Positions 5,139-41,466 of a stretch of DNA of 64,000 nt are shown here, piece after piece. The notes beneath the pieces were generated by a model, which made no database searches, was not told where the DNA came from, and saw only the letters and a program-made list of their open reading frames with translations. Source of the DNA: a virus (lineage: Duplodnaviria > Caudoviricetes); the IMG/VR virus record IMGVR_UViG_2767802019_000001, positions 7,528-71,527 of that record; one strand, written 5' to 3'. The position numbers and the translations under genes were made by a program. The number at the start of each line of letters is the position of its first letter. Position 1 is the first letter of the stretch.

Positions 5139-6053
5139 ATGACAGAGAACCTGATCGCCCACGCAATTGCTGCGGTGCAGCGGGGCTGGCACGTATTCCC
5201 CTGCAATTCCGCCGGGACCCGCTGCCCCCAGTCCGGTGACGTCATCGACAAGCAGCCGCACCTGATCGTGCCGGACAAGCCGTACAAGATCCGGTGGGGG
5301 GAGTGGGCCACCACCGACCTGGACCGCGTGATCGAGGCCTGGACGTACGCGCCGTCCGCCAACGTCGCGATCGCCTGCGCACCTTCGGGGCTGCTGGTTG
5401 TCGACTGCGACATCTGCAAGGGACCCGGCCAGCTGGAGGGCACACCGTACGCGGCGCTGCACGAGAAGCTCGGTCCGCTGGTCGACGGCACCGACGTGCT
5501 GCGCCACCTGTGCGAGCTGTACGGCGGCGACTGGGACGACCTGATGGACACCTACCGGGTGCAGACCGGACGGCTGGGACTGCACCTGTACTTCCGGTGG
5601 CCGCCGGGCCTCACCGCGTCGCAGGCCTCGCCCGTCAAGGGCCTGGTCGACGTGCGCGGCAACGGCGGGGAGCGCGGCGGCTACGTGCTCGCGGCCGGCT
5701 CGCGCACCACGTCCGGCCCCTACATCGCGGAGAACGACGCGCCCGTGCGCGACGCCCCGCCCTGGCTGGTCGAGTTGTGCCGCGAGAAGCCCCGCCCCGC
5801 GCGAGCGCTGTTCGCGCAGCCGCGCAGGACGGGCAACCGGTCCGGGCTGATCGACATGGTGCGCAACGCGCCGCCCGGCAACCGGTCCAACGCCCTGTTC
5901 TACGCGGCCCGCTGCTACTGCTCCGACGGCGTCGCCATCGAGACGGCCATCGGCGAACTCGCGGAGGCGTACACCGGCCGCGGCGGACACCGCCAGGCGG
6001 CAGCGTCCGTCAGATCTGCCTATCGAAATCAATCACGCAAAGAAGGGCTCTGA
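5139..6053 (+). CDS. Bifunctional DNA primase/polymerase (prim-pol) with C-terminal PriCT-like domain
   Basis: RGWHVFPC, ANVAIAC..GLLVVDCD, QTGRLGLHLYF, VDVRG..GGYVLAAGS, GNRSNALFYAA. Confidence 0.88.
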   Translation: MTENLIAHAIAAVQRGWHVFPCNSAGTRCPQSGDVIDKQPHLIVPDKPYKIRWGEWATTDLDRVIEAWTYAPSANVAIACAPSGLLVVDCDICKGPGQLEGTPYAALHEKLGPLVDGTDVLRHLCELYGGDWDDLMDTYRVQTGRLGLHLYFRWPPGLTASQASPVKGLVDVRGNGGERGGYVLAAGSRTTSGPYIAENDAPVRDAPPWLVELCREKPRPARALFAQPRRTGNRSGLIDMVRNAPPGNRSNALFYAARCYCSDGVAIETAIGELAEAYTGRGGHRQAAASVRSAYRNQSRKEGL

Positions 6054-7083: not shown

Positions 7084-7250
7084 CCCCACCTGCAAGCCGC
7101 ACCACACCAGGGGTGTCGCAGCCTGGCGGATACCCGACACCGCTTGCGCCCGCTGAAGCGGCGGGCGTAGAGCGGAGCACATCAACCCGCGCACCCCGGC
7201 CAGCGATTGGCGTCGCCGACCGGGGCACTTGACCAGGAGAGCTGACCTCC

Positions 7251-8060
7251 ATGGCCCGCAAGAAAGGTAGCGCCGCACCCCCTGCGGCGATCAAGAGTTC
7301 TGACAGGTTTCCCGTTTCCTCTTCTGACGCCTCGCGCGTCCTGACCCTGCTCGCCGTCATCGCGGCCGTAGCCACCATCGCCCTCACCGGCGGCGCCTTC
7401 TGGCTTTCGTACGAACACCTGCATGACGTCGCCGCGGCCCAGGGGCTTCAGCACTCGCCCGCCAGGGCGTGGGCATGGCCCGGCACCGTCGACATGTTCA
7501 TCGTCGTCGGCGAGGTACTGATCCTGCGCGCCTCGCTGATGCGGCGCATCGACTGGTGGGCCATCGCGCTCGCCGTCGCCGGATCGCTCGGCTCCATCGC
7601 ACTGAACGTCGCGGGCGTCGGCACCGGAGCCGAACCGATGGACTACGTGGTGGCCGCAGTGCCGCCCGTCGCCGCGCTGCTCGCCTTCGGCGCGCTCATG
7701 CGCCAAGTCCACGAAGCCATTGCGCGGCGCGTCGCAACGCCCGGCGTTGCAGTGCCACGCACCCCCGTTGCAGCCATCTGCGCGGCACCCCTGCGCCCCG
7801 TCTTCCGGTGGGCCGACGCGGTTCCTGCGGGGGTGCGGCTGCTGCCGCTCGTGGCGGCGGGCGCAACGCCCGTGGCGGTGCCGTCGCAGGGGCGTGGCGA
7901 GATGCTGACGACCAGTGAGGTCGCGGAGCGGCTGAACGTCAGCCCAAACACGGTCCGGTCCTACAAGCACCGCGGCACCCTGACCCCCGTTGCAGCCGAC
8001 CCCGGGGGCGGGCACCTCTTCGACGCCCGGGATGTGGAGAAGCTGCGGGGTGCGCCGTGA
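7251..8060 (+). CDS. DUF2637/SpdA-like membrane protein with C-terminal MerR-like HTH
   Basis: GAFWLSYEHLHDVA..AWAWPGTVD..SIALNV..AAVPPVA pattern, four TM segments; LTTSEVAERLNVSPNTVRSY HTH. Confidence 0.8.
   Translation: MARKKGSAAPPAAIKSSDRFPVSSSDASRVLTLLAVIAAVATIALTGGAFWLSYEHLHDVAAAQGLQHSPARAWAWPGTVDMFIVVGEVLILRASLMRRIDWWAIALAVAGSLGSIALNVAGVGTGAEPMDYVVAAVPPVAALLAFGALMRQVHEAIARRVATPGVAVPRTPVAAICAAPLRPVFRWADAVPAGVRLLPLVAAGATPVAVPSQGRGEMLTTSEVAERLNVSPNTVRSYKHRGTLTPVAADPGGGHLFDARDVEKLRGAP
7733..7994. repeat. Cluster 1 of SCGTTGCR 8-mers (candidate TraB recognition sequences)
   Basis: Copies at 7733(rev), 7744, 7765, 7862(rev), 7987. Confidence 0.7.
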
Positions 8061-10252
8061 GCATCCCCGACGGCGCCACGGGGACGGTCATCAACGGGAC
8101 AGAGCAGAAGGTCACGTTCAAGAAGGTCGGAGCGGACGACAAACGGGAGACGTACGCGCTCGATCCTGATGCGCCGCCGATGCCCGTCGACACCCCGCAA
8201 GTCGCAGCCGACACGGGTACGTGGGCGGAGCAGCGCCGCGCTGACCTCACGGACGCGCCCGCGGTGCTGCCGACCTGGCTGCGCAGCGTGCGCGAGTTCG
8301 CCGTCAATATGCGCTGGACGCTGGCCTACTGCGTCCACTTCGGGGCGTTCCACCTGCTGCGCCTGCCGGTCTACCTGATCCGGCTGCTGCTGTGTGCCCC
8401 GCGCGGCACCGGGCGGCTCATCGTCCGGTGGGGCAAGTGGGTCGCGGACACCGAGGCGCGGCCGGTGACGGCCAGGGCCGCGGCGACAGCCGACATCGAG
8501 GCGTGGCTGGCCCTGTCGCGGGAGCACTCGCGCAGGGTGAGGCCGCGGCGCATCGCATCCCTGGCCCTCGCGGGCGCAGTGTTGCTGATCCTGTTTGTGG
8601 CCGCGCTGGCCGTGCCGCTGTGGTGCGGGGGCGCGGTGACCGCGGCCCTGGCTCTGGCCGGTGTGCATGGCCGACGCGGGGACAAGCCGATCGTCACCCG
8701 CTACCTGTCCATCCACCTCCAGCGTCCGCTGGACTCCGAGGAGCTGGCTCAGGCGATCGAGGCGATCGGCGTCAAGGGCACGCCGCGGTTCGTCGCGCCG
8801 ATCGCGGTCGACGGCCCCGGATGGCTGGCGCAGGTGGACCTGCCCGGCGCGACGCTCGCGGAACTGCTGCTGGACAAGCGCAAGGAGCTGGCCGCCGCGA
8901 TGCGGCGCCCGTTGCAGTGCGTCTGGCCGTCGGTGGGCTCCGAGCATCCGGGGCGCGCGAACATCTGGGTCGCGAAGAAGGACCCGCGCACGATTCTGCG
9001 GCCGTGGCCGCTGCTCGCCGGGGGCGCAGCGGACATGTACGGGGAGATCCCCTTCGGCGTCACGCCCAAGGGCGACCGTGAGCCGCTCGCCGTCATCGCG
9101 ACCAACATGCTCATCGGCGGCGTCATGGGCTCCGGGAAGACGTCGGCGGTGTGCACGATCGCATGCGCCGGGGCGCTGGATCCCACCTGCGAGGAGTGGC
9201 TGTTCGAGCTGAAGGGCTCGGGTGACCTTGAGGGCCTCAGGCCCATCTGTCACCGCTACGTGCAGGGTGACGACGACGAGCACTGCGAGGCCGCGCTGGA
9301 CGGGGGCTACGCCCTGGAGAGGGAGATGAAGCGGCGCAAGAAGACCGTCGCCGGTCTCCCCGTCGCGGATGTGCCGACCGGGCGCAAGGTGACCCGCAAG
9401 CTCTCGGACAAGTACCCGCACCTGCACCTGCACCCCATCCTCGCGATCTTCGACGAGGTGCACACGCTGTTCGAGCACCCCGTGTACGGCAAGGAGGCAG
9501 AGGCGGTCTTCGCCCGGCTGATCCGCAAGGCGCGGGCGTACGGCATCATCCTGGTGCTGACCACGCAGCGGCCCGACGCGAAGTCGATCCCCAAAAAGAT
9601 CAGCGACAACGCGATCGTGCGCTTCTGCCTCGCGATCACCGGACACACCGCGAATGACCTGGTGCTGGGCACCGGCATGTACAAGCGGGGGATCCGCGCG
9701 AACATCTTCGAGCCCGCCGAAGGAGACGATCCGAAGGACTCCGGGACCGGGTGGCTCGCCCGCTCCGCGACCAACGCGAAGATCGTGCGGGCGTATTTCA
9801 TCCCGCAGGCGGACGTGCGTGATGTCGGCCGGCGCGGCCTCGCCCTGCGGACCGCAGCCGGAACGCTGTCGGGCGAGGCCGCTGGCCAGCAGATCGAGAA
9901 GCCCGACCGCACGACCATCGCCGACCACGTCCACGCCATCTGGCCGGACGGCGCTGACGCGGTGCACAGCCACCGGCTGGTCGAGTCGCTCGCGCTGTAT
10001 CTGCCGGAGCTGTACGGCTCGTGGATGGAGACAGAGAAGCCTGTCGCAGAGATGAGCCCGGACGAAGTACGCGACGTCCAGGCCGTCCGTTCCACGGCGC
10101 TGTCGGCCGCCCTCAAGGTGCACAAGATCCCGACTCGGCAGATCACCATCCGGGACTGCTGCGGGGGAGCGAAGGGCGTGCGCTACGCCGACCTCCCCGA
10201 GCCCAGGGGCGCCGACGAGGACGACGAAGACCCGGCTTCGGCAGGGGTCTGA
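8057..10252 (+). CDS. traB: TraB-like FtsK/SpoIIIE conjugal DNA translocase
   Basis: N-terminal TM segments, NMLIGGVMGSGKT Walker A, ILAIFDEVH Walker B, RKARAYGIILVLTTQRP, C-terminal putative winged helix; architecture of Streptomyces plasmid Tra proteins. Confidence 0.88.
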   Translation: MSIPDGATGTVINGTEQKVTFKKVGADDKRETYALDPDAPPMPVDTPQVAADTGTWAEQRRADLTDAPAVLPTWLRSVREFAVNMRWTLAYCVHFGAFHLLRLPVYLIRLLLCAPRGTGRLIVRWGKWVADTEARPVTARAAATADIEAWLALSREHSRRVRPRRIASLALAGAVLLILFVAALAVPLWCGGAVTAALALAGVHGRRGDKPIVTRYLSIHLQRPLDSEELAQAIEAIGVKGTPRFVAPIAVDGPGWLAQVDLPGATLAELLLDKRKELAAAMRRPLQCVWPSVGSEHPGRANIWVAKKDPRTILRPWPLLAGGAADMYGEIPFGVTPKGDREPLAVIATNMLIGGVMGSGKTSAVCTIACAGALDPTCEEWLFELKGSGDLEGLRPICHRYVQGDDDEHCEAALDGGYALEREMKRRKKTVAGLPVADVPTGRKVTRKLSDKYPHLHLHPILAIFDEVHTLFEHPVYGKEAEAVFARLIRKARAYGIILVLTTQRPDAKSIPKKISDNAIVRFCLAITGHTANDLVLGTGMYKRGIRANIFEPAEGDDPKDSGTGWLARSATNAKIVRAYFIPQADVRDVGRRGLALRTAAGTLSGEAAGQQIEKPDRTTIADHVHAIWPDGADAVHSHRLVESLALYLPELYGSWMETEKPVAEMSPDEVRDVQAVRSTALSAALKVHKIPTRQITIRDCCGGAKGVRYADLPEPRGADEDDEDPASAGV

Positions 10253-10334
10253 GGTTTCACCGCGGCCCGAAACCGGTTTCGGGCCCGATATCGACGCGAT
10301 CACTGGCGCGACCTGCGGAAGTTTCGGGTTTCGG
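10253..10334. repeat. 22-bp palindrome plus GGTTTCGG-type repeats just downstream of traB
   Basis: GGCCCGAAACCGGTTTCGGGCC at 10264-10285; further copies at 10320 and 10327. Confidence 0.7.
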
Positions 10335-10401
10335 CCCTGTGCCGCGCCACCTCATATGCCCTGCGTATCCACCGCGACGACACCCGATGAAAGGACCCCG
10401 C

Positions 10402-10752
10402 ATGACCCGCGTGTACAGCAAAAGCCAGATGGCCCGCCGCGTCTGGCTCACCGGACGCATAGCCAAGCAGGCCATGGCCGACGACGAGTACGGCACCGAG
10501 GCCGACAGTTGCGTCGACCCGAAGCTGTTGCGCGAGATCGACCGCATCGACCGCCGCGCCGAAGAAGAGGCGGGCTACCAGCAGTACGCGGCCAAGCGGC
10601 AGCTCGAAGAAGCACGCGGCGCCGCCGCGGCGGCGAAGGTCCGCCTGAACGCCGCTGCCCCAAAAGACAAGCGCCAGGCCCGCATGGCCAAGAACGACGC
10701 GGAGGCGGCGCTGAAGCGGGCGCAGCGCGCCGCCCGCAAGGCGGGGCTCTGA
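10402..10752 (+). CDS. Helical basic hypothetical protein (transfer module)
   Basis: AAAGGA RBS, Ala/Arg/Lys-rich coiled coil. Confidence 0.65.
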   Translation: MTRVYSKSQMARRVWLTGRIAKQAMADDEYGTEADSCVDPKLLREIDRIDRRAEEEAGYQQYAAKRQLEEARGAAAAAKVRLNAAAPKDKRQARMAKNDAEAALKRAQRAARKAGL

Positions 10753-10793
10753 GCGCCGACGGATTGTACCGCAAGTAGCCCTGGAGGGACGCC

Positions 10794-10907
10794 ATGAATC
10801 TGATCAACCCTGACACCGGCAGCGAAGTCGAGACCGAAGAAGACGGCGACTTCACCGTCACCTTTCCGATGAGGCTCCCCGAGCCCGCTGACGAAACCGG
10901 CGACTGA
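10794..10907 (+). CDS. Small acidic protein (37 aa)
   Basis: GGAGGG RBS, TGATG coupling to next gene. Confidence 0.5.
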   Translation: MNLINPDTGSEVETEEDGDFTVTFPMRLPEPADETGD

Positions 10908-11251
10908 TGCACCCCCCGTTGCAGCCGTGGCACCAGTGTCACGCACCCCCGCCGCAGTACCTGGGCACCGACGCGAACGGCCAGCCTGTATACGGCAGCC
11001 CCCCGGCGCACCCTGCAACGCACCCCGTTGCGCCGTTGCAGCCGATCGTTGCGCGGCCGTGGGGCGCCTACCTCGGGGGCGGCTGCCTGGCCGTGATCGC
11101 GCTCGCGATCCTCGGCACCGTTGCGGTGTTCCTGATGCTCGGCCTCGCCGCCGTTGCAGTGTGCATCGGCCTCGCCGCAGTCGCGCTGACGATCTGCGTA
11201 CTCGTGCTGCGCTCGATGTGGCGCGACTACCAACGAGAGAAGGGGCACTGA
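10907..11251 (+). CDS. Pro-rich membrane protein, SpdD-like spread protein candidate
   Basis: Pro/His-rich N-terminus then two hydrophobic helices; downstream of traB as in Streptomyces plasmids. Confidence 0.55.
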   Translation: MHPPLQPWHQCHAPPPQYLGTDANGQPVYGSPPAHPATHPVAPLQPIVARPWGAYLGGGCLAVIALAILGTVAVFLMLGLAAVAVCIGLAAVALTICVLVLRSMWRDYQREKGH

Positions 11252-11278
11252 CCCCGCCCGCACCCGCGCCCCGTTGCC
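10916..11278. repeat. Cluster 2 of SCGTTGCR 8-mers
   Basis: Copies at 10916, 11014(rev), 11025, 11033, 11046, 11118, 11151, 11271 (11046 and 11271 each deviate at one flanking base). Confidence 0.7.
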
Positions 11279-11294
11279 ACCGGCAGCGGGGCGC
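11266..11294 (+). terminator. GC-rich hairpin closing the transfer module
   Basis: GCGCCCCGTTGCC-ACC-GGCAGCGGGGCGC. Confidence 0.55.
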
Positions 11295-30482: not shown

Positions 30483-30602
30483 GGAGCCTCCTGCCGTTGA
30501 CCGGGCACTTGTCACAGGCTGCCCTGCCGGGCGCTTCTGTTCTGCTCCGTGCGCCCACAAAGCGCGTGGCCTGCGTCACAAGTTGCTGCGACGGAGGCGC
30601 TG

Positions 30603-31082
30603 ATGGCCCTCTTCGTCGTGATCGGCCCGCCCGCCGCGGGCAAGAGCACGTGGGTCAACGACCGAGCGAAGAGCGGTGACATCGTCATCGACTACGACCG
30701 CATCGCCAACGCGCTGACCGCGGTCGGCGCCGCCCCGCACGGCCACAGGCGCCCCCTGGCGACGGTTGCTTTCCGTGCCCGCGAGGGTGCCATCACCGAG
30801 GCGCTGCGGCACGTCGAGACGCACGACGTCTACATCATCCACTCGGTGCCCAAGCAGGCCGCGATGGACCGCTACCGCAAATGCGGCGCGGAGGTCGTCA
30901 CGGTCGATCCGGGGCGCGACGTCGTTGAAGCGCGCTGCGCCGCCGAGCGCCCCGAGGACTACATGAAGGGCGTGCAGCGCTGGTACGGCTCTGGCCTGCG
31001 TAAACGCCCTGCACTCATTCAGACGATCAGTGCGCCCGAGGGCGCGACACCGCGGCCGGCCACGGGGTCCCGCGCATGGTGA
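30603..31082 (+). CDS. AAA_33-like P-loop NTPase/kinase
   Basis: VVIGPPAAGKSTW, IVIDYD. Confidence 0.8.
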   Translation: MALFVVIGPPAAGKSTWVNDRAKSGDIVIDYDRIANALTAVGAAPHGHRRPLATVAFRAREGAITEALRHVETHDVYIIHSVPKQAAMDRYRKCGAEVVTVDPGRDVVEARCAAERPEDYMKGVQRWYGSGLRKRPALIQTISAPEGATPRPATGSRAW

Positions 31083-31092
31083 AGGGAACCTG

Positions 31093-31509
31093 ATGGCCGT
31101 TCAGCTTGCTACTGCAACTCAGAACGCGATGGCGGACGCCGCTGTCGACCTGGTCGACGGGGGAGCGGGCGCCGGAACCATCAAGCTCTACACGGCGTCG
31201 CAGCCCGCGAACGCGAACACGGCGGTGTCCGGTCAAACGCTGCTCGCCACGTTCACGCTGGACGATCCCGCCTTCGGCGCGGCGTCTTCTGGTGTCTGCA
31301 CGCTGGCTGCGGTGCCTCTGTCGACGACCGGCGTTGCGGCCGGGACGGCCGCGTGGTTCCGCTGCGCGAGCAGCACGCCGGGCACGGTCTTCGACGGCAG
31401 CGTCACGGCGACGGGCGGCGGCGGGCAGCTCCAGCTCAATACAACGACGATCTCGGTCGGCGTCAGTGTGGAGATCACCAGCGGTACGTTCACGATGCCC
31501 GCGGCCTGA
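31093..31509 (+). CDS. Virion appendage structural protein
   Basis: Beta-rich; GTIKLYTASQPANANTA..LLATFTL..GTAAWFR..DGSV..LNTTTI. Confidence 0.6.
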   Translation: MAVQLATATQNAMADAAVDLVDGGAGAGTIKLYTASQPANANTAVSGQTLLATFTLDDPAFGAASSGVCTLAAVPLSTTGVAAGTAAWFRCASSTPGTVFDGSVTATGGGGQLQLNTTTISVGVSVEITSGTFTMPAA

Positions 31510-31511
31510 CC

Positions 31512-32243
31512 ATGCCGATCGGCTTTCAGAGTGCCACGACGGTGACGCTCAACGCGGGCGGGAACAACGCTGCCACGGTGTCCGTCAACGTGCCTGCGGG
31601 GACGGCCAACGGCGACATGCTGATCTTCGGTATCGAGGTGTCGGAGTCCGCCGGGGTCGTCCCGGCGATTCCGGGCTTCACTCAGAAGGCAACGGTCAAC
31701 GACCTGCCCAGCGGGGATCAGGACAACACCGTGAGCCTGTTCTGGCGCCGGGCGTCCTCGGAGCCAGCCAGCTACACCGTGACGCCGGACGGCACGTACG
31801 GCAACTACGCCGCGATGGCCATGCTCCGGTACACCGGAGTGATCGCGACAGGTGACCCGTTCCGCACGTCAGCAACGCTGGCGGGGAACGGCACCGGCAT
31901 CTCGAAGACGAGTACAGCCCTGACGGGGGTTCAGTCCACGGACCTGGCCATTCACTGTGTGGGGACGTCGCTGGCCACCTGGAACGGAACGGCGTATGAC
32001 GTGGCGGGCCCTGGCGGTTCCTGGACGGAACGCGGCGAGATCGGCATGACGGCCGGGGCCACGCCCAATCCGCGCATCCTGTTCGCCGAACAACTGGGGA
32101 CCGGTACCGCCCCGGTCTTCACGTCGACCTTCGCCGGTGTCGCCTGGTGCTTCTGCGCCGGGGCGCTGATCGCGGAGCCCCCGCAGACGGGCCCGAACAA
32201 CAGGATCTTCAGCACGGCGGTGCGTCGTGCCTCTATGTGGTGA
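31512..32243 (+). CDS. Beta-sandwich appendage protein; shares domain with baseplate protein 48991-52953
   Basis: VNVPAGTANGDMLIF..GFTQ..LFWRRASSEPASYT. Confidence 0.6.
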   Translation: MPIGFQSATTVTLNAGGNNAATVSVNVPAGTANGDMLIFGIEVSESAGVVPAIPGFTQKATVNDLPSGDQDNTVSLFWRRASSEPASYTVTPDGTYGNYAAMAMLRYTGVIATGDPFRTSATLAGNGTGISKTSTALTGVQSTDLAIHCVGTSLATWNGTAYDVAGPGGSWTERGEIGMTAGATPNPRILFAEQLGTGTAPVFTSTFAGVAWCFCAGALIAEPPQTGPNNRIFSTAVRRASMW

Positions 32244-32252
32244 GAGGACGTC

Positions 32253-32522
32253 ATGGCCGCTCTTGATCCCAACAGGTATCCGCTGATGTGGATGAACGGG
32301 GAGTCGGACCGTGTCGCGCTGTACGCGCTGCGCGACATCACCGCCGCCGACACCCTGGACGTGATCCAGCAGTTCACGGTCATCAAGCGCGCTGTGATCA
32401 TGGGGACGACCGTCGCGGCAGCGGTGGGCGCCTCCATCTCCGGGACGACCGTCACGATCCCCGCAGGCGCCAACAGGGACGGTGCATACCTGCTGGTCTA
32501 CGGCGTGGCCGGTGTTGCGTGA
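32253..32522 (+). CDS. Small structural protein
   Basis: GAGGA RBS, beta-rich. Confidence 0.55.
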   Translation: MAALDPNRYPLMWMNGESDRVALYALRDITAADTLDVIQQFTVIKRAVIMGTTVAAAVGASISGTTVTIPAGANRDGAYLLVYGVAGVA

Positions 32523-33019
32523 GCCTCTACATCGCCTACAACTGCGCTGTCGACGCGACCACTGGCGTCATGACGGGAACCAGCTACGCCGCCGGTGCCA
32601 AGTGCGCGATCCAACTGGCCGCCACCTCGACCGTCGGCATCCGCGTAGTCGAATGGGGTGTTTCCTTCAACGGCAGCGCCGCCGGAACTCCTGCGGTGTG
32701 CACACTCGCACAGGCCAGTGCTGCTACGACGTCGCTCACTGCGCACAGCACCAGCACGGTCGTGCCTGTGGGCGACAACGCGAAGGCGAGCAGCCTCACC
32801 ATGGGCACCGGTTCCACTGGCTACGGCGCGGCGGCCATCGTCACGAACACCACGGAGCGGCAATTCGCGGGCGCCTTCGTGGGCCCTACGACGCAGTACG
32901 AGAAGCAGTTCCCCCTTGGCCGCGACTACGTGGTGAGCCCCTCGAAGTACTGCCAGCTGCGCATCAACACCGCGGCCACGCTCACGGCGATCGCGTACAT
33001 CGTCTTCGAGGAGTGCTGA
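32519..33019 (+). CDS. Beta-rich structural protein
   Basis: GTGA coupling; Thr/Ala/Ser-rich. Confidence 0.55.
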   Translation: MSLYIAYNCAVDATTGVMTGTSYAAGAKCAIQLAATSTVGIRVVEWGVSFNGSAAGTPAVCTLAQASAATTSLTAHSTSTVVPVGDNAKASSLTMGTGSTGYGAAAIVTNTTERQFAGAFVGPTTQYEKQFPLGRDYVVSPSKYCQLRINTAATLTAIAYIVFEEC

Positions 33020-33036
33020 CCCGAGGGCGGTGACCC

Positions 33037-34290
33037 ATGGCCCGTCTCGGCCGCAGACAGCCGGCAGGCGCGTACACGACGCGGTACACGCAGCCCGCCA
33101 CAGCGCTGGATGTTGACGGCGACCTCGCGGTCGCGGCTCCGTCCGCGACGGTGGCCGCTGCGGGGCAGCTGGAGGTCGCCGGCGCCCTGTTGGTTACGGC
33201 GCCCTCGGTTGCGGTGGCCGTCGTCGGTGCGGTCGAGGCAGCAGGCAACCTGCCCGTCACCGCGCCTCTGCCCGTCCTCGGCATCGCCGCTGACATGGTC
33301 GCAACGGGCACGCTGGCTGTGACCGCGCCTTCGGCCGTAGCGGCCCTTGCCGGGGTCGTCACGGCAGTTGGTGACCTGTCCGTCACCGCGCCTTCGGTCA
33401 CGGTCGCCGCCGCCGCCGACGTCACCGCATCGGGGGCCCTCCCCGTCGTCGCACCGGTCCCGGTCATCGACATGACGGCGCAGGTGCCATACGCGCTGCG
33501 CGTCGTCGCTCCTGCCGCTCATGTCTTCATGGTGGGCGGCGCAACGGATCTGCTGGATGTCGTCGCTCCTGCCGCGGCCGTTGCGTTCGCCGCGGACGTC
33601 AAGGTCACCGGCGACATCGAAGCGGGCGCTCCTTCCCCCACCGTCCAGGCCGGCGGCGGGGCCACCGTGTACGCCACGCTGGCCGTGGCGGCACCTGCCG
33701 CAGCGAGCGATGCTGACGCCGAGCTGACGGTGACGGGCGAGGCGTCGGTTACCGCACCGGCACCCGCGATCGGCTTGGACGGGGAGGTTGGCGCCGTAGC
33801 GGCAGTGGCCGTGACGGCGCCCGCGCCTCACGTAACGATGCCCGCTGAAGCGATGGTCCTCAGTACGGCTGCTGTCGCTGCCCCGGCGCCTGTAATGGTG
33901 CTGCCGGGCGAGGTGACGACGCGCGGGTCCATTGCTGCCGTGGCGCCCTCCGTGGGGTTCTCCGCTGCGGGCACGGTGGCTGCGCCCGGCTCGCTGTCGG
34001 TGCTCGCTCCGGGCGCTCAGGTGGCTTTGCAGGGCGCCGCGTCCACCGGCGTAGGCATGCTCACGGTGACGGCGCCGGCGCCTGCCGTCCTGGCGTTCCT
34101 GGAGACCCGTGTCAGCGGCCCCCGTGTTGTTGTCGTGTTCGCAGAGCCCCGCGTCCTGACGGTGCCCGCCGAGCCGCGCACGGTCCGTGTCATCGAAGAG
34201 ACGCGAATTCTTACTGTCGCCCCCGAGGCCCGCACGATGCTGATCGAGCCGGCGCCGCGAGTCCTGGAACTGGCGGGTGACTTCGGATGA
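33037..34290 (+). CDS. Fibre-like protein built from ~21-aa Ala/Val repeats
   Basis: TAP recurs about every 21 aa, roughly 16 times; C-terminal (A/E)E.R.L.V repeats. Confidence 0.7.
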   Translation: MARLGRRQPAGAYTTRYTQPATALDVDGDLAVAAPSATVAAAGQLEVAGALLVTAPSVAVAVVGAVEAAGNLPVTAPLPVLGIAADMVATGTLAVTAPSAVAALAGVVTAVGDLSVTAPSVTVAAAADVTASGALPVVAPVPVIDMTAQVPYALRVVAPAAHVFMVGGATDLLDVVAPAAAVAFAADVKVTGDIEAGAPSPTVQAGGGATVYATLAVAAPAAASDADAELTVTGEASVTAPAPAIGLDGEVGAVAAVAVTAPAPHVTMPAEAMVLSTAAVAAPAPVMVLPGEVTTRGSIAAVAPSVGFSAAGTVAAPGSLSVLAPGAQVALQGAASTGVGMLTVTAPAPAVLAFLETRVSGPRVVVVFAEPRVLTVPAEPRTVRVIEETRILTVAPEARTMLIEPAPRVLELAGDFG

Positions 34291-34592
34291 GCGAGTTCGG
34301 TGAGGCCATTTCTGAGGGCGACAAGCGTACGCAGCTCGAAGCAATTCGCGACCGGCTTGCCGCGGAGATCAGCGGCGAGTCCGACTGCTGCGAGTGCGGC
34401 AAGCCGCGGCGTTCGTCGGGCGCTGAAACCGCCGCTCTGACGCTGCGCCTGGTCAAGGTGCTCGAAGCGCTTGAAGGGATCCCCGATGGCGCGACGGTGT
34501 CCCGGGTCGATGAGCTGATGGCCCGCCGCACGGGCGGCAGCACGAACGCCGCACGCCGTCAGGGCGGCAGGCGCAGGGGCACCGGGGCATGA
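34287..34592 (+). CDS. Terminase small subunit (putative)
   Basis: LEAIRDRLAAEI..AALTLRL..VDELMARR, directly upstream of TerL. Confidence 0.75.
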   Translation: MSEFGEAISEGDKRTQLEAIRDRLAAEISGESDCCECGKPRRSSGAETAALTLRLVKVLEALEGIPDGATVSRVDELMARRTGGSTNAARRQGGRRRGTGA

Positions 34593-36163
34593 GCGGTGTC
34601 GTCATACCGGGGCGCGGCGATCAGGCCCCCCGGATACTCAGCGCGCCGCCGCGCGTTTCCAGCGCGGGTGCTGATGTCGCGGAGCTTGCGGAGATCGCCG
34701 GGCTCACCCTCGATCCGTGGCAGCGCCTCGTGCTCGATGAGGCCCTCGGGCAGCGGGCGGACGGGACATGGTCCGCCTTCGAGGTCGGTCTGATCGTCGG
34801 CCGCCAGAACGGCAAGGGCGTCGTCCTCGAAGCCCGTGAGCTGGCCAGCCTTTTCCTCCTGGACGAAGAGCTGTGCATCCACAGCGCCCACCTCTTCGAC
34901 ACGTCACTCGAAGCCTTCAAGCGCATCCTCGGCCTTATCGAGAGCACGCCGGACCTGGACCGCATGGTCAAGCGCGTCAGCCGCTCCCACGGCGAAGAGG
35001 GCATTGAGGTCTTCCGTGACGGGGCGCTGCGGCGCCTTCGTTTCCGCTCGCGCACTGCGGGCGGCGGCCGTGGCTTCTCCTGCGACTGTCTCGTGCTGGA
35101 CGAAGCGATGATCCTCACGGACCGTGCGGTCGGCGCGATCCTCCCGACACTGTCCGCGGTGCCTGACCCTCAGGTCTGGTACACGGGGTCGTCCGGCACC
35201 AAGGAGTCGACCGCGCTCGGCCGGGTCCGCACCCGCGGCATCGCCGGCTCCGATCCCCGCTTGTGCTACCTGGAATGGTCGATCGACGAGTGCACGCAGT
35301 TCTGCCCTCCGACGTGCGAAGACCACGACGTGCAGGACTTCAGGGCCGACCCCCGCTGGACGCGAGAGGAGTACGACCGGCAGCTTTCTCGTCTGTACGC
35401 CTCGTATCCGAAGGCGAATCCTGGCTTTGGCATCCGCATCGGCGGTGCGCATTCTCCGGAGCGCAGCGTGGAGCACATCGAGGCTGAGCGACGCAGCATG
35501 TCCGCCGAGGAGTTCAGTCGCGAACGCCTGGGTGTGGGGGACTGGCCGGTCGAGGGCGAGTCGTGGCGTGTCATCGGTGAGGCGTACTGGAAGGCCTGCA
35601 TCGATCCGGCGTCCGAGCCCGTCGGTGACCTGTCCTTCGGCGTCGATCTGACGCCGGACCGCAAGAGCGGCTGCATCGTCGTCGCCGGGCTGAACCCAGA
35701 CGGCCTGACCCACGTAGAGATCACATCGTCTGATGCTCTGGACCATCGCCCTGGTGACCGGTGGATCGTGCCGCGCCTGGCCGACCTGGTGGCGCGCTGG
35801 AAGCCGAAGGCTGTGGTCATCAACCGTGCCGGTCAGGCGGGCGCGCTGATACCGGCGCTCGAAGCCAAGGGCGTCGAGGTCATCAATCCGACTGCCCGCG
35901 AATTCGCTCAGGCCTGCGGCTCGTTCGGCAGCGCCGTCGTGCCGATGCGCGGCAATCATCCCACCCTCGTGCACCTGGACCAGGTGCCGCTGTCATCCGC
36001 TGTCGCGGGCGCCGACAAGCGCGTTGTTGCCGACCTGTGGGCCTGGGACCAGCGGGGAGCAGCCATCGACATCTCACCTCTCCAGGCCGCGACGCTCGCG
36101 GTCTGGGGTCTTCAGCAGAGCGCCAAGAAGCCGCCCGTCGAAGCAGGTTGCGCATGGGGGTGA
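34589..36163 (+). CDS. Terminase large subunit
   Basis: LDPWQ, VGRQNGKG Walker A, LVLDEA Walker B, FGVDLTPDR nuclease domain. Confidence 0.92.
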   Translation: MSGVVIPGRGDQAPRILSAPPRVSSAGADVAELAEIAGLTLDPWQRLVLDEALGQRADGTWSAFEVGLIVGRQNGKGVVLEARELASLFLLDEELCIHSAHLFDTSLEAFKRILGLIESTPDLDRMVKRVSRSHGEEGIEVFRDGALRRLRFRSRTAGGGRGFSCDCLVLDEAMILTDRAVGAILPTLSAVPDPQVWYTGSSGTKESTALGRVRTRGIAGSDPRLCYLEWSIDECTQFCPPTCEDHDVQDFRADPRWTREEYDRQLSRLYASYPKANPGFGIRIGGAHSPERSVEHIEAERRSMSAEEFSRERLGVGDWPVEGESWRVIGEAYWKACIDPASEPVGDLSFGVDLTPDRKSGCIVVAGLNPDGLTHVEITSSDALDHRPGDRWIVPRLADLVARWKPKAVVINRAGQAGALIPALEAKGVEVINPTAREFAQACGSFGSAVVPMRGNHPTLVHLDQVPLSSAVAGADKRVVADLWAWDQRGAAIDISPLQAATLAVWGLQQSAKKPPVEAGCAWG

Positions 36164-36166
36164 CGG

Positions 36167-37597
36167 ATGGCCTGGTGGAAGAAGCTCATCCCCTGGGGCC
36201 GTAACCGGAAGGCCTTCACACAGCCCGACTTCTGGAACATCGACGCTGCCCCGTTCTTCATGGGCAGCACCGCCGACAAGGAGCGGATCGAGACCGACTT
36301 CGAGGGCTACGTCGAAGGAGCCTTCAAGCGCAACGGCCCGATCTTCTCATGCGTCATGGCACGTCAGATGGTGTTCAGCGAAGCCCGGTTCCAGTGGCGG
36401 AAGTTCAAGAACGGCCGCCCAGGCGATCTCTTCGGCAGTCAGGAGCTGACACTCCTGGAAAGGCCGTGGGCTTCCGGCACGACGGGCGAGCTGCTCGCGC
36501 GCATGGAGCAGGACGCCTCACTGGCCGGAAACTCGTACTGGACGAAGACCGACGACCAGGGCCGCTTCGGCGACAGTGCGAGCGGCCCCGGTCTGCGGCT
36601 CGCGCGGCTGCGGCCTGACTGGGTGTCGATGGTCATCGGCTCTCACTCCGGTGACTTGTACGCCGTGGACGCGAGGATCATCGGCTTCCTCTACGAGCCG
36701 CGGCAGTTCGGCGTCATGTCGTCGGGCGGACCGATGGCGAGTGGCGGCGCTGTCCTGCTCATGCCGGACGAAGTCGCCCACTACAGCCCGATACCCGACC
36801 CGGGAGCCCGCTTCAGGGGAATGAGTTGGATCACGCCCGTACTGCGGGAGATCGAGGCGGACACCGCGGCGACGGTCCACAAGAAGACGTTCTTCGAGCA
36901 TGCGGCTGTACCGAACATGGTGGTCCGCTTCGACAAGGACGTGCAGAAGGAGCAGTTCGAGTCCTTCGTCAAGGCGTTCAAGGCCGGGCATCAGGGTGCG
37001 TTCAACGCGTACAAGACGCTCTTTCTCCAGGGCGGCGCCGACGTCACGCCGCTCACCCACGATTTCCGGCAGCTCGACTTCACGTCGACCGTCGGCAAGG
37101 GTGAAGCGCGCATAGCGAGCGCCGCCGGGGTCCCACCCTCGTGGGTCGGCTTCTCCGAGGGCCTTCAGGGGTCCGCGCTCAATGCCTCCAACTTCACCGC
37201 GAGCCGGCGCCGCTTCGCGGACGGCACGATGCGCCCGCTGTGGCGCATGGCCGCGTCGTGCCTGGAAAACCTGGTGACGGTGCCGAACGGCGCGAGCCTT
37301 TGGTACGACGACCGCGACATCGCCTTTCTGCGCGAGGACTCCAAGGACCGCGCGGAGATCCTGCGCGTGCAGGCGAACACGATTGACGCCCTCATCAAGG
37401 CGGGCTTCGAGCCTGATGCCGCAGTGCAGGCGATTCTCGCCGAAGACGTCTCTCAGCTCGTCGGTCAGCACACCGGCCTCGTGTCGGTTCAGATGCAGCC
37501 GCCCGCAAGTCTCGAACCCGCGGAGCCCGAAGTCAATCCCGCGCCCCTTGAATTGGAACAATCCGGCACGCCGGAAGGACAAGATGATGGAGCGTAA
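36167..37597 (+). CDS. Portal protein (HK97-like)
   Basis: Position; GNSYW, V.HY..RGMSWI, DFTS..RIASAAGVPP. Confidence 0.9.
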   Translation: MAWWKKLIPWGRNRKAFTQPDFWNIDAAPFFMGSTADKERIETDFEGYVEGAFKRNGPIFSCVMARQMVFSEARFQWRKFKNGRPGDLFGSQELTLLERPWASGTTGELLARMEQDASLAGNSYWTKTDDQGRFGDSASGPGLRLARLRPDWVSMVIGSHSGDLYAVDARIIGFLYEPRQFGVMSSGGPMASGGAVLLMPDEVAHYSPIPDPGARFRGMSWITPVLREIEADTAATVHKKTFFEHAAVPNMVVRFDKDVQKEQFESFVKAFKAGHQGAFNAYKTLFLQGGADVTPLTHDFRQLDFTSTVGKGEARIASAAGVPPSWVGFSEGLQGSALNASNFTASRRRFADGTMRPLWRMAASCLENLVTVPNGASLWYDDRDIAFLREDSKDRAEILRVQANTIDALIKAGFEPDAAVQAILAEDVSQLVGQHTGLVSVQMQPPASLEPAEPEVNPAPLELEQSGTPEGQDDGA

Positions 37598-38735
37598 AAG
37601 CCTGTCCGGCGGCCTGGAAATCAAGGACGCGGAAAAGGGCATTGTCTCGGCAGTCTTCTCAACTATGAACGTCCGCGACCACGACGGGGATTACACCCGC
37701 GAGGATGCCTTTACCGACGGGGCGCCGGTTGTTATCAGCGCCTACGGACACAAGTCCTGGGACGGTGCGCCCCCGGTAGGAAAGGGCGTCATCCGCGTGA
37801 AGGGCAAGCGGGCCGTCCTTGAGGGGCAGTTCTTCATGAACACCACGGCGGGCCGAGATACTTTCGAGACCGTAAAAGAACTCGCGAAGGACGGCCTTGG
37901 TGAGTGGTCGTACGGCTTTGACATCAACAAGTACTCCTTCGGTGAAGAGAAGGACCAGCCGGTCCGCTATCTCGAAGCCGTGACTGTGCACGAGGTGTCA
38001 CCCGTTCTGCTGGGTGCTGGAATCAATACGCGCACTCTGTCGACGAAGGGCCGTGCCGTGGACGATGACCAGTTCCGCACCGTGAAGGGCCCAACTGCCG
38101 TTCGCGGGCCCATTCCGGCACAGGAGACAGCGACGCTCACGCGCGCCTGGGACGGCGCGAAGACAATCGGTGATCTGCCTGAGGACTCGCGGCCCTCCCA
38201 GCTCCGCAGCGTGTATGCGTGGGTCGACCCCGACGGGGACCCGGAGCTGAAGGGCTCTTACCTGCTGGCTCACCACCACGGAGTCGACGGGCCGGCCAAT
38301 CTGCGCGCGTGCCTTCAGGGCATCGCGCAGCTGAACGGCGTAAGCGGTGACTCCGGGGTTCCGGAGTCTGACCGTGAGGCGGTCTACAAGCACTTGGCAT
38401 CGCATCTTCGCGACGCCGATCGAGAGCCGCCCAAGCTGCGGGACCGCAGTGACGGGCATGCGAAGGGCCTCACTTTGAGTGAGGAACTGATTGACGCTCT
38501 TGCCTGTACGGCAGGGGCAATTGACAGCGCGTCACGGGTGGTCGCTCTGCGCGCCGAAAAGGGAAAGTCGCTCTCAAAGGTCAATTCCGAGATCCTGGAC
38601 TGGATCAGGGATGAACTCAAGCGGCTTGATTCCATCTTGTCGGTACCGGTCGTCAATGACGAGCCGGACGGACCGAGTGATGAACAGAAGCTGTCGCTCT
38701 ACGTCCAGTCCCTGGCTCTTATCAACGACTTCTAG
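37587..38735 (+). CDS. Prohead maturation protease with extra C-terminal domain
   Basis: AVFST.N.RDHDGD, H, EWSYGF, L..EVSPV..GA. Confidence 0.88.
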   Translation: MERKSLSGGLEIKDAEKGIVSAVFSTMNVRDHDGDYTREDAFTDGAPVVISAYGHKSWDGAPPVGKGVIRVKGKRAVLEGQFFMNTTAGRDTFETVKELAKDGLGEWSYGFDINKYSFGEEKDQPVRYLEAVTVHEVSPVLLGAGINTRTLSTKGRAVDDDQFRTVKGPTAVRGPIPAQETATLTRAWDGAKTIGDLPEDSRPSQLRSVYAWVDPDGDPELKGSYLLAHHHGVDGPANLRACLQGIAQLNGVSGDSGVPESDREAVYKHLASHLRDADREPPKLRDRSDGHAKGLTLSEELIDALACTAGAIDSASRVVALRAEKGKSLSKVNSEILDWIRDELKRLDSILSVPVVNDEPDGPSDEQKLSLYVQSLALINDF

Positions 38736-38750
38736 CAGTCGCGTCCCTTG

Positions 38751-38776
38751 AGGCCCCCTGTTCGGGGGCTTTTTTC
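38751..38776 (+). terminator. Intrinsic terminator between protease and capsid genes
   Basis: AGGCCCCC-TGTTC-GGGGGCTTTTTT. Confidence 0.75.
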
Positions 38777-38796
38777 ATGCCCGAAAACGGAGCGTC

Positions 38797-40083: not shown

Positions 40084-40099
40084 TCGAGAACCGACCTGA

Positions 40100-40134
40100 C
40101 CGAAGGGGCCGCTGTCTGGCGCCCCTTCGGTTTT
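40100..40134 (+). terminator. Terminator after capsid gene
   Basis: CCGAAGGGGC/GCCCCTTCGG stem then TTTT. Confidence 0.7.
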
Positions 40135-40152
40135 CCTCATGAAGGGAATCCC

Positions 40153-40587
40153 ATGGGCAACATCATGCCCGGCACCGGGAAGATCGGTTCCGGGAACCAC
40201 GTCGGCCGCGTGAAGTACGCGCGCGCCGTCTACGACTTCGCGGTGGACGGCGGTGCGATCGGCACCATCACGCTGCGAGGCGACGCACTGCCTACCGGCG
40301 CCATTCTGCTGGACGCCTTCGTCGATGTCACGACGGCCTTCCTTCCCGTGACGACCACGACTGTGGCGCTCACCGTCCAGTCGGCCGGCGATCTGCGGGC
40401 GGCGGCACTCACCAATGCCTCGCCGTCCGTCATCTCCACCACGGGCGCCAAGCGCCTGCTGGTGGACGCCGGTGACGCTGACCTGGTCAAGACGACGGCA
40501 GTCCGCTCGATCACCCTGGCCGTCGCCGCGGGAGCCGTGACGGCGGGCAAGTGCTCGGTCGTCGTGGCCTACCTGGAGCTGGCCTGA
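40153..40587 (+). CDS. Capsid decoration/cement-like protein
   Basis: Beta-rich; LPTGAILLDAFVDVTTAF..TAGK..VVVAY. Confidence 0.6.
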   Translation: MGNIMPGTGKIGSGNHVGRVKYARAVYDFAVDGGAIGTITLRGDALPTGAILLDAFVDVTTAFLPVTTTTVALTVQSAGDLRAAALTNASPSVISTTGAKRLLVDAGDADLVKTTAVRSITLAVAAGAVTAGKCSVVVAYLELA

Positions 40588-41465: not shown

Positions 41466-41466
41466 C

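What the first reader, a model, noticed from the sequence alone, without database searches (positions are those of the whole stretch)
7084..11294. A tailed prophage carrying a Streptomyces plasmid-type TraB conjugation module (candidate conjugative phage)
Seen: inside the co-oriented early operon lies a hairpin-rich leader (7110-7225), then DUF2637/SpdA-like TM+HTH, an intact 731-aa TraB-type FtsK ATPase, a coiled-coil ORF, a Pro-rich Spd-like TM protein and a closing hairpin. The same element has complete virion and lysis genes. Known: in Streptomyces, TraB alone suffices to move circular dsDNA plasmids and AICEs between hyphae, and Spd proteins spread them within mycelium. No AICE integrase or Rep lies inside the module, so it does not look like a separately inserted AICE. 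Inference: the excised phage circle may move by conjugation or through hyphal cross-walls as well as by virions, bypassing receptor-based defence.
Basis: partly seen in the sequence, partly recalled or inferred. Interest (0 to 1): 0.9.

Follow-up and report, generated by a model that had tools for sequence, protein, structure and literature searches.

The report
Streptomyces prophage with TraB transfer module
An integrated tailed phage of Streptomyces carries an intact plasmid-type DNA pump (TraB) with its likely recognition site; many related phages keep the same pair, so they may pass their DNA directly between hyphae as well as by particles, though this is untested and a few conjugating Streptomyces "plasmid-phages" are already known.

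Summary
The window is most of a ~74-kb integrated siphophage with a full virion and lysis module. A serine integrase lies just past the window's right end. Its early operon holds a DUF2637+HTH membrane protein, an intact 731-aa TraB (33% identical to pSVH1 TraB; Walker A/B intact), a small charged helical protein and a Pro-rich 2-TM protein.

New here:
1. A ~90-bp non-coding element of GGTTTCG repeats sits directly after the traB stop. It is conserved in all 55 related loci and in AICE relatives, at the position typical for clt.
2. A second 8-mer, CGTTGCAG, is kept inside the flanking genes against codon usage.
3. traB is under purifying selection (dN/dS 0.11-0.29).
4. At least 40 of 55 TraB loci are clearly phage. 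The usual order is DUF6907, DUF2637, TM, TraB, HNH, TerL, portal, capsid.
5. No att repeats, GntR, Nudix or ParAB were found, so this is not a nested AICE.

Actual transfer is untested. Prior art lowers the novelty: plasmid-phages pZL12 and pFP4 conjugate, and SpdB2 homologues are reported in phiC31 and VWB. I class it as a new variant of a known kind. The scan has not noted this TraB on other DNA.

The parts
5139..6053 (+). Prim-Pol replication protein, immediate upstream context and not part of the transfer module
   Evidence: PF09250, E 1.1e-29. Conserved at 64-83% in the close relatives L009, L033, L035, L052 and L058. No tblastn match to the Prim-Pol of AICE plasmid NZ_CP107792.
6661..7083 (+). 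WhiB-like small regulator, the last gene before the module
   Evidence: phrog_12112, WhiB-like, E 2.9e-7.
7084..7250 (+). Intergenic leader with three hairpins and an RBS (GGAGAG, 7237-7242)
   Evidence: Sequence; inverted repeat 7109-7118/7135-7144. MFE -72.4 kcal/mol but z only -1.54, so structure is present but not statistically unusual.
7251..8060 (+). DUF2637 membrane protein with a C-terminal MerR/excisionase-type HTH; its stop overlaps the traB start by 4 nt
   Evidence: PF10935 E 7.5e-14, HTH_17 E 3e-7; phrog_733 E 6.6e-30. 58-69% identical over the DUF2637 part to phiSASD1 gp15, Dubu gp38 and OnionKnight gp57. A homologue lies upstream of traB in 22 loci.
7733..7995 (.). First cluster of the CGTTGCAG repeat (extended form ACCCCCGTTGCAGCC), inside the DUF2637-HTH gene
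   Evidence: 8 of the window's 10 CGTTGCAG copies lie in 7745-11152, binomial p 1.4e-8. Expected 0.18 copies given the proteins and the phage's codon usage, observed 8, reached in 0 of 5000 synonymous shuffles. The copies fall in different reading frames and use rare codons. The same clusters occur in L009, L033, L035, L052 and L058.
8057..10252 (+). traB: a 731-aa FtsK-like dsDNA translocase of the Streptomyces plasmid/AICE type
   Evidence: PF01580. 33% identical to pSVH1 TraB, E 1e-36; 36% to AICE plasmid NZ_CP107792 TraB. Walker A/B intact and hydrophobic segment about 168-205. AF2 pLDDT 77.5; Foldseek top hits are FtsK motors 6t8o/2ius (E 5e-14) and TcpA. dN/dS 0.11-0.29.
10253..10340 (.). 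Candidate clt: GGTTTC half-site, 22-bp palindrome GGCCCGAAACCGGTTTCGGGCC (10264-10285), CCCGATATCG, and tandem AGTTTCGGGTTTCGG (10320-10337)
   Evidence: The same architecture lies within about 100 bp after the traB stop in nearly all 55 loci and in AICEs L075 and L077 and in L076. Counts of GGTTTCG/CGAAACC: 187 in 8.25 kb of such zones against 93 in 1.09 Mb elsewhere.
10402..10752 (+). Small charged, Ala/Arg/Glu-rich, probably helical protein (116 aa; alternative start 10387)
   Evidence: Frame set by GC3 and by homologues that lie just upstream of traB in other loci (cluster 15, 81). No Pfam or PHROG family.
10907..11251 (+). Pro-rich N-terminus plus a two-TM membrane protein; also carries the second CGTTGCAG cluster (10912-11159)
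   Evidence: Translation. Homologues in 33 loci, usually directly upstream of traB. Motif positions.
11266..11294 (+). Closing hairpin, 13-nt arms and 3-nt loop, no T-tail
   Evidence: I5. Not called as an intrinsic terminator.
30549..57227 (+). Late region. Terminase small-subunit-like 30549-31082, TerL 34589-36163, portal 36167-37597, prohead protease region 37383-38735, capsid 38797-40083, tape measure 44681-48994, large tail protein 48991-52953, endolysin 56111-56854, small ORF 56862-57227
   Evidence: PHROG hits: phrog_9 1.8e-65, phrog_12 1.4e-43, phrog_10 1.2e-38, phrog_880 4.6e-63, phrog_4581. Pfam Phage_portal, Peptidase_S78, Phage_capsid. The tape-measure and tail labels rest on size and position only.
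62847..63575 (-). Remnant of a serine recombinase (zinc-ribbon and coiled-coil part only). The intact 669-aa serine recombinase of the prophage lies just beyond the window end, at about window-equivalent 64080-66089 on the + strand
   Evidence: phrog_95 E 1.3e-8; translation. Host contig context with Resolvase + Zn_ribbon_recom and host genes on both sides.

Best explanation
The window is an integrated temperate siphophage of a Streptomyces-type actinomycete. Its early operon contains a working AICE/plasmid-type double-stranded-DNA transfer module.

Proposed mechanism: TraB forms a membrane-anchored FtsK-like hexameric pump. Its conserved C-terminal helical domain recognises the GGTTTCG repeat element placed directly after its own gene (a clt). 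Together with the DUF2637-HTH membrane protein, the small helical protein and the Pro-rich TM protein, it then pumps the circular phage genome across hyphal contacts or septal cross-walls. This would happen after excision by the serine integrase, or after injection.

Such transfer would let the phage colonise neighbouring compartments or recipient mycelium without virions or a receptor, while keeping the normal lytic route.

Shown here: the anatomy, homology, conservation, selection and cis-element. Inferred: binding of TraB to the element and any cell-to-cell transfer.
For: 1. TraB identity. 33% identical to the characterised pSVH1 TraB. FtsK-motor fold. Intact ATPase motifs and a hydrophobic N-terminal anchor.
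2. Cis site. A GGTTTCG-repeat element lies immediately downstream of traB, about 266-fold enriched. Its architecture is conserved across TraBs only about 50% identical, including AICEs of Thermomonospora and Actinomadura that have int, xis and rep but no virion genes. Other TraB lineages carry different short repeats at the same place. This fits the published rule that clt regions hold 8-bp repeats read by the cognate TraB (PMC4447253, PMC3583192).
3. The C-terminal domain (STALSxALK...TRQxTIRxCCGGA) is almost invariant across clades, matching the shared motif.
4. Purifying selection on traB, dN/dS 0.11-0.29 in 16 pairs.
5. Fixed synteny of DUF6907, DUF2637-HTH (or the phrog_16651 protein), TM, small protein, TraB, HNH, TerL, portal, capsid in 32 loci. 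About 8 more loci have a tape-measure-sized ORF on the opposite strand. Some records have terminal repeats and serine integrases.
6. Part of this gene order (DUF6907, DUF2637, TraB) also occurs in the AICE L077. In the TraB tree the AICE pair is sister to the window's clade.
7. Not a nested AICE: no att repeats, integrase, GntR or Nudix.
8. Experimental precedent that a Streptomyces phage genome can conjugate: pZL12 and pFP4 (PMC4170104, PMC3583192).
Against: - No experiment of any kind bears on this element.
- The TraR/KorA-type GntR repressor that normally tames lethal traB is absent, so regulation must differ.
- No SpdB2 homologue was identified, and the small genes have no family.
- The C-terminal domain gives only weak winged-helix-like fold matches, Z at most 4.1.
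- FtsK-like genes of unknown role are common even in lytic actinophages (bioRxiv 10.1101/2024.02.16.580700).
- In the small phages traB sits right before HNH and terminase, which would also fit a DNA-processing role.
- None of the 50,697 isolated phage records carries this TraB. Whether such prophages make infectious particles is therefore unknown.
- A genome of about 74 kb is far larger than the 9-24-kb AICEs that TraB is known to move.
Confidence: 0.5

Rival explanations
1. The module works only inside the infected or lysogenic mycelium for the phage's own DNA handling. For example, it might move or clear phage DNA across closing septa into compartments or prespores (an FtsK/SpoIIIE-like segregation role), or assist replication or packaging. 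There would be no transfer to another individual.
For: - The motor is FtsK-like.
- The gene lies in the early/replication region, and in the small phages directly before HNH and terminase.
- The phage also encodes SsgA-, WhiB- and BldC-like developmental regulators, which suggests manipulation of septation.
- The AICE regulators Kor and Pif are absent.
- Authors of lytic Streptomyces phage genomes suggest replication roles for their FtsK-like genes (PMC11536984).
Against: - The closest non-phage relatives (55-58% identity) sit in classical AICEs and share the same downstream repeat element.
- TerL and portal already provide packaging.
- An integrated prophage is segregated with the chromosome and needs no pump of its own.
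Confidence: 0.22
2. The module is a weapon or shield in conflicts between mobile elements. It could act in superinfection exclusion, block or hijack incoming AICEs or plasmids of the same clt type, or serve as a defence ATPase. In this reading it is not a transfer system for the phage.
For: - FtsK/HerA-type ATPases occur in anti-phage systems; HerA complexes appear among the structural matches.
- The module lies among accessory early genes.
- An XRE-DUF5753/DUF6879 pair travels with TraB in many loci.
Against: - The cognate repeat element lies in cis on the phage itself, at the clt position.
- Top fold and sequence matches are FtsK, TraB and TcpA, with HerA far weaker.
- Core-like conservation at a fixed position is unlike the usual turnover of defence islands.
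Confidence: 0.1
3. The module is a hitch-hiking remnant of an AICE captured by recombination. It is neutral or selfish with respect to the phage, and the phage gains nothing from it.
For: - AICE and phage TraBs interleave in the tree.
- Gene order differs between the window clade (TM and small gene after traB) and the small phages (both before traB). This shows recombination within the module.
Against: - Purifying selection on traB.
- Intact full-length genes in 55 loci.
- Conserved non-coding element.
- No integrase, rep or att of its own.
- Translational coupling with a DUF2637 gene of phage lineage.
Confidence: 0.08

Closest known systems
TraB/clt system of Streptomyces conjugative plasmids (pSVH1, pIJ101, pSG5)
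   Same: - FtsK-like translocase with an N-terminal membrane part and a C-terminal DNA-recognition domain.
- 33% identity to pSVH1 TraB.
- Short repeats clustered next to traB.
- Neighbouring small membrane proteins in an operon with overlapping stop and start codons.
   Different: - The repeat is GGTTTCG-type, not the pSVH1 motif.
- No GntR TraR/KorA.
- No recognisable SpdB2, SpdB3 or SpdA.
- The carrier is a ~74-kb tailed prophage, not a 12-kb rolling-circle plasmid.
AICEs (pSAM2, SLP1, pMEA300 class). Nearest here are the elements in Thermomonospora cellulosilytica (L075) and Actinomadura nitritigenes (L077)
   Same: - TraB 55-58% identical, with the same GGTTTCG element after traB.
- DUF6907 and DUF2637 lie upstream of traB in L077.
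- Prophage-like integration.
   Different: - AICEs are 9-24 kb with their own int, xis and rep next to tra and no virion genes (PMC2440964, PMC3218068).
- Here the module has none of these. The only integrase is the phage's serine recombinase, more than 50 kb away.
Streptomyces plasmid-phages pZL12 (phage ZL12, GQ919031) and pFP4
   Same: One DNA molecule with virion genes and a tra gene. They are reported to conjugate and to form infectious particles (PMC4170104, PMC3583192).
   Different: - pZL12 is a 90-kb ParAB plasmid with a GntR regulator.
- Its Tra (pZL12.71c) shares only the P-loop with this TraB.
- The window phage is integrated and lacks ParA and ParB.
- pFP4 could not be examined.
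SpdB2 homologues in temperate actinophages phiC31 and VWB
   Same: [quoted passage not shown]
   Different: Those phages are reported to carry a spread protein, and no TraB is mentioned for them. This phage has the motor and a clt-like site but no identified SpdB2.
'FtsK-like' proteins annotated in isolated actinophages (for example Mandalore, Naboo, Geonosis)
   Same: FtsK/SpoIIIE ATPase domain; function unknown.
   Different: Not detectably related at tblastn E 1e-5. Only 8 Bacillus, Staphylococcus and cyanophage records matched.
pPaSha2 of Pseudonocardia alni (CP052773), deposited as a plasmid
   Same: A 41.9-kb circular record with terminase, portal, protease, capsid and holin, plus adjacent DUF2637 and FtsK genes. 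TraB is 37% identical. It is an independent example of a phage carrying the pair.
   Different: A different TraB lineage with TGGTCGC-type repeats after traB. The module points away from the virion genes.

Membership tests
Streptomyces TraB (FtsK-like conjugative dsDNA translocase) | FtsK/SpoIIIE motor domain with intact Walker A and B | tested here: met
   PF01580. GGVMGSGKT, FDE and TTQRPD motifs. Foldseek matches to FtsK motors, E 5e-14, target-normalised TM 0.65-0.69.
Streptomyces TraB (FtsK-like conjugative dsDNA translocase) | Sequence homology to an experimentally characterised TraB | tested here: met
   33% identity over 377 aa to pSVH1 TraB, E 1e-36.
Streptomyces TraB (FtsK-like conjugative dsDNA translocase) | N-terminal membrane association | tested here: met
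   Hydrophobic stretch about 168-205 in the alignment, modelled as long helices 147-185 and 190-205. No dedicated TM predictor was run.
Streptomyces TraB (FtsK-like conjugative dsDNA translocase) | C-terminal winged-helix domain that reads the repeats | tested here: inconclusive
   A conserved helical domain at residues 620-705. Best fold matches are weak (Z at most 4.1), though many are winged-helix DNA binders such as forkhead, Cul1 WH, Stn1 and H1.
Streptomyces TraB (FtsK-like conjugative dsDNA translocase) | Cis-acting clt with short repeats close to traB | tested here: met
   GGTTTCG repeats at 10253-10340, conserved in 55 loci and in AICE relatives, about 266-fold enriched. Binding itself cannot be tested here.
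Streptomyces TraB (FtsK-like conjugative dsDNA translocase) | Kil-kor pairing with a GntR-type TraR/KorA | tested here: not met
   No GntR match above cut-off in the 71.5-kb record. This feature holds for 'most plasmids' only (PMC4447253).
Streptomyces TraB (FtsK-like conjugative dsDNA translocase) | Mediates conjugal transfer and pock formation | not testable with these tools
   Needs mating experiments.
AICE (actinomycete integrative and conjugative element) | Own int, rep and tra clustered within 9-24 kb and flanked by att repeats | tested here: not met
   No Tyr or Ser integrase in the record. No att-like direct repeats around the module. Prim-Pol is adjacent but unlike the one AICE Prim-Pol compared. 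Virion genes lie on the same element.
Streptomyces plasmid-phage (pZL12 type) | Extrachromosomal maintenance with ParA and ParB | tested here: not met
   No ParB_N or ParA (AAA_31) hits. The element is integrated between host genes with a serine recombinase at its end.
Streptomyces plasmid-phage (pZL12 type) | Virion genes and a tra gene on one replicon | tested here: met
   The tra genes are not homologous beyond the P-loop.
Tailed temperate phage (Caudoviricetes, HK97-fold capsid) | TerL, portal, HK97 capsid, tail, lysis and integrase genes | tested here: met
   TerL is 47% identical to Rhodococcus phage REQ1. IMG/VR labels the record a provirus, 100% complete by CheckV.

The most novel reading that the evidence does not exclude
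A widespread lineage of integrating Streptomyces siphophages is truly bimodal. The same genome spreads by virions and, through its own TraB and GGTTTCG-clt, as naked circular dsDNA between hyphae or across cross-walls, independent of any receptor. This would resemble a viral movement protein. The module has been exchanged repeatedly between phages and AICEs.
Probability: 0.35. Interest if true: 0.85.

Novelty: new variant of a known kind. Interest (0 to 1): 0.62.

Why it matters
If TraB moves these prophages, part of phage spread in soil Streptomyces would escape receptor-based resistance and would not depend on particle stability. Plaque-based isolation would miss it; none of 50,697 isolated phage records carries this TraB.

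It would blur the line between phage and integrative conjugative element in a group that makes most antibiotics. It would also show how AICEs and phages swap whole functional modules.

In practice, the conserved ~90-bp GGTTTCG element plus traB is a compact, testable candidate cassette for mobilising large DNA in Streptomyces. The idea can be tested directly with standard mating, pock and EMSA assays.

Tried and rejected
- **Nested AICE.** Rejected. No integrase in the record, no att-like repeats, no GntR or Nudix.
- **ParAB plasmid-prophage like pZL12.** Rejected. No ParA or ParB, and host genes flank both ends.
- **Samy prophage of S. ambofaciens as a relative.** The paper mentions no FtsK or TraB.
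- **DUF2637 as SpdA or SpdB2.** Not supported. pSVH1 SpdB2 has no Pfam family, and SpdA is described as a soluble DNA binder.
- **10356-10778 as the gene after traB.** This is the wrong frame by GC3 and homology.
- **Leader hairpins as a significant RNA element.** z is only -1.54.
- **Promoter and terminator scan of the module.** Nothing useful on the + strand.
- **CGTTGCAG as the universal TraB site.** Rejected in that form. It is confined to the 77-97% subclade, while the TraB C-terminal domain is near-invariant across clades. It remains a real, selected second motif with an unknown partner.
- **The Zhong 2010 pZL12 paper.** Could not be read. pFP4 was not examined.
- **Fold search of the C-terminal domain.** Only weak matches.

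Full report
**What the window is.** The window is bases 7528-71527 of a 71.5-kb IMG/VR provirus record. Exact-protein look-ups place it in a 328-kb contig of NCBI assembly GCA_000717945.1, contig JODF01000003.1. Host genes lie on both sides. A 669-aa large serine recombinase (Resolvase + Zn_ribbon_recom) sits just beyond the window's right end. The record itself has no tyrosine or serine integrase, only a C-terminal recombinase remnant at 62847-63575. G+C is 63-71%. All named relatives at 67-83% identity are Streptomyces, apart from one Allonocardiopsis. The host is therefore taken to be a Streptomyces; no tool output gave the organism's name.

**The late region is a normal siphophage module.** It holds TerL, portal, prohead protease, HK97-type capsid, a 1437-aa tape-measure-sized ORF, a 1320-aa tail protein and an amidase endolysin. 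TerL is at best 47% identical to that of any isolated phage, Rhodococcus phage REQ1.

**The module.** The genes after a WhiB-like gene are co-oriented, in this order:
- A 167-nt leader with hairpins. Its folding energy is not unusual (z -1.54).
- A DUF2637 membrane protein with a C-terminal MerR/excisionase-type HTH, 7251-8060.
- traB, 8057-10252, overlapping the previous stop by 4 nt.
- A 116-aa charged helical protein. The true frame is 10402-10752.
- A Pro-rich protein with two TM helices, 10907-11251.
- A hairpin at 11266-11294.

TraB has intact Walker A and B and the TTQRPD motif, plus a hydrophobic N-terminal segment. It is 33% identical over 377 aa to the biochemically characterised pSVH1 TraB (E 1e-36) and 36% identical to the TraB of an excised AICE, NZ_CP107792. 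Its AlphaFold model (pLDDT 77.5) best matches FtsK motor domains and the TcpA coupling protein. It shares only the P-loop with the Tra of plasmid-phage pZL12. It has no relative among 50,697 isolated phage records apart from distant Bacillus, Staphylococcus and cyanophage FtsK genes.

**A clt-like element.** A non-coding stretch follows the traB stop directly (10253-10340). It contains a GGTTTC half-site, the perfect 22-bp palindrome GGCCCGAAACCGGTTTCGGGCC, CCCGATATCG, and a tandem AGTTTCGGGTTTCGG.

The same architecture lies within about 100 bp after traB in virtually all 55 non-redundant related loci. It is also present in three further relatives, two of which are classical AICEs (L075 Thermomonospora, L077 Actinomadura) with int, xis and rep and no virion genes. 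GGTTTCG/CGAAACC occurs 187 times in 8.25 kb of such zones against 93 times in 1.09 Mb elsewhere. In equal-sized control regions of 35 loci the related 8-mer occurs 3 times against 106.

More distant TraB lineages carry different short repeats at the same place: ATAGCGGCC-like in NZ_CP107792 and TGGTCGC-like in pPaSha2. The literature describes exactly this for clt: short repeats read by the cognate TraB C-terminal winged helix (PMC4447253, PMC3583192). The C-terminal domain of this TraB family is almost invariant across clades, which fits the shared motif. Its fold match to winged-helix proteins is weak.

**A second motif.** CGTTGCAG (extended form ACCCCCGTTGCAGCC) is concentrated in two clusters inside the DUF2637-HTH gene and the TM gene. 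Eight of the window's ten copies lie there (p 1.4e-8). Given the protein sequences and the phage's codon usage, 0.18 copies are expected, and none of 5000 synonymous shuffles reaches 8. The copies lie in different reading frames and use rare codons. The clusters recur in relatives with 77-97% identical TraB, but not in the distant clade. This motif is real and selected at the DNA level. Its partner is unknown; the HTH of the DUF2637 protein is a candidate, by analogy with SpdA2 and its sps site inside its own gene (PMC4170104).

**Distribution and context.** IMG/VR gave 24 loci and the species-representative genomes 36 loci with TraB 50-97% identical. After clustering all ORFs in 55 non-redundant loci and annotating representatives, 32 loci show the following order on one strand: c3, c2, DUF6907, DUF2637-HTH (or a phrog_16651 protein), TM protein, small protein, TraB, HNH, TerL, portal, capsid. 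About 8 more have a 900-1500-aa tape-measure-sized ORF on the opposite strand a few kb downstream.

Several records are 37-62-kb contigs with terminal repeats. Some carry serine or tyrosine integrases. An independent case is pPaSha2 of Pseudonocardia alni. It was deposited as a plasmid but encodes terminase, portal, protease, capsid and holin next to DUF2637 and FtsK genes.

In 301 Streptomyces species genomes, 6 carry a TraB at least 53% identical. A further 62 carry 36-42% relatives, presumably AICE-type; their context was not checked.

In the TraB tree the two AICE sequences are sister to the window's clade, and the 45-row small-phage clade is separate (SH-aLRT 97-99, quick search only). 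This implies exchange between phages and AICEs.

**Selection and independence.** dN/dS of traB is 0.11-0.29 in 16 pairs, and every copy examined is full length. No att-like direct repeats flank the module. The record has no GntR, Nudix, ParA or ParB. The adjacent Prim-Pol and the DUF2637 gene have no detectable similarity to those of the AICE compared, whereas the DUF2637 part is 58-69% identical to genes of isolated Streptomyces phages phiSASD1, Dubu and OnionKnight. The module is therefore an integral, long-kept part of the phage and not a nested AICE.

**Interpretation.** The most economical reading is a functional TraB/clt transfer module acting in cis on the phage genome, for conjugation-like transfer, intramycelial spread, or both (confidence 0.5). 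Rivals:
- An intracellular segregation or DNA-handling role (0.22).
- A conflict or exclusion role (0.10).
- A selfish remnant (0.08).

Arguments against the main reading are the missing Kor-type repressor, the absence of an identifiable SpdB2, the large genome size, and the complete lack of experiments.

**Novelty.** The idea is not new in kind. Streptomyces plasmid-phages pZL12 and pFP4 are reported to conjugate and to make particles (PMC4170104, PMC3583192; GQ919031). SpdB2 homologues in phiC31 and VWB were proposed to spread phage DNA (PMC4447253). I found four things undescribed in the searched literature:
- A canonical pSVH1/AICE-type TraB in integrated tailed prophages.
- Its conservation as a near-core gene of a large phage group.
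- The shared GGTTTCG clt-like element.
- The evident phage-AICE exchange.

I therefore class it as a new variant of a known kind, with interest 0.62.

Noticed in passing
window 2566-2769 (+): 67-aa MerR/HTH_17 protein (E 1e-11). Identity to BldC itself was not checked.
   Followed up: partly
window 16585-17295 (+): Phage-encoded SsgA-family protein (PF04686, E 3e-25). It is conserved at 43% in relatives L035 and L052.
   Followed up: partly
window 27689-28936 (+): Free-standing 415-aa protein with Rpf-type transglycosylase, NlpC/P60 and LysM domains. It lies between the early genes and the terminase, separate from the endolysin.
   Followed up: partly
window 4052-4729 (+): TerD-domain protein (PF02342, E 1.2e-16; phrog_5698) in the early operon.
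   Followed up: no
window 13679-14677 (+): This 332-aa ORF gave no Pfam family at E 0.001 and no PHROG.
   Followed up: partly
window 58538-60166 (-): A gene pair, XRE-HTH+DUF5753 and DUF6879. Homologues (28-65% identity) lie within 10 kb of traB in about ten other TraB loci, so it may be the immunity region or an accessory system of this phage group.
   Followed up: partly
window 62847-63575 (-) and just beyond 64000: A serine recombinase remnant (zinc ribbon and coiled coil only) next to an intact 669-aa serine recombinase. The intact protein also carries a DUF4096 hit and lies outside the IMG/VR provirus boundary, so the database boundary cuts off the phage integrase.
   Followed up: partly
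L006 (CP052773.1, pPaSha2, Pseudonocardia alni): A 41.9-kb circular 'plasmid' record that is a complete tailed-phage genome with a DUF2637/FtsK pair and only a short integrase fragment. It may be a phage-plasmid or an excised prophage.
   Followed up: partly
L007 (phiSASD1 gp15), L008 (OnionKnight gp57-60): Isolated Streptomyces phages carry the same DUF2637+HTH gene without any FtsK/TraB. In OnionKnight it is followed by three small membrane proteins. Its function in those phages is unknown.
   Followed up: no
L076 (Nocardiopsis sp. Huas11, 1-4371 and 5000-22000): An AICE-like end (Prim-Pol, HTH_17, integrase) lies directly beside a TraB-bearing region that has a 1737-aa tape-measure protein. 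This could be two tandem elements or one composite.
   Followed up: no
L003 6014-7366 and window 6-410: A C-5 cytosine methylase and an endonuclease VII gene at the left of the early region.
   Followed up: no
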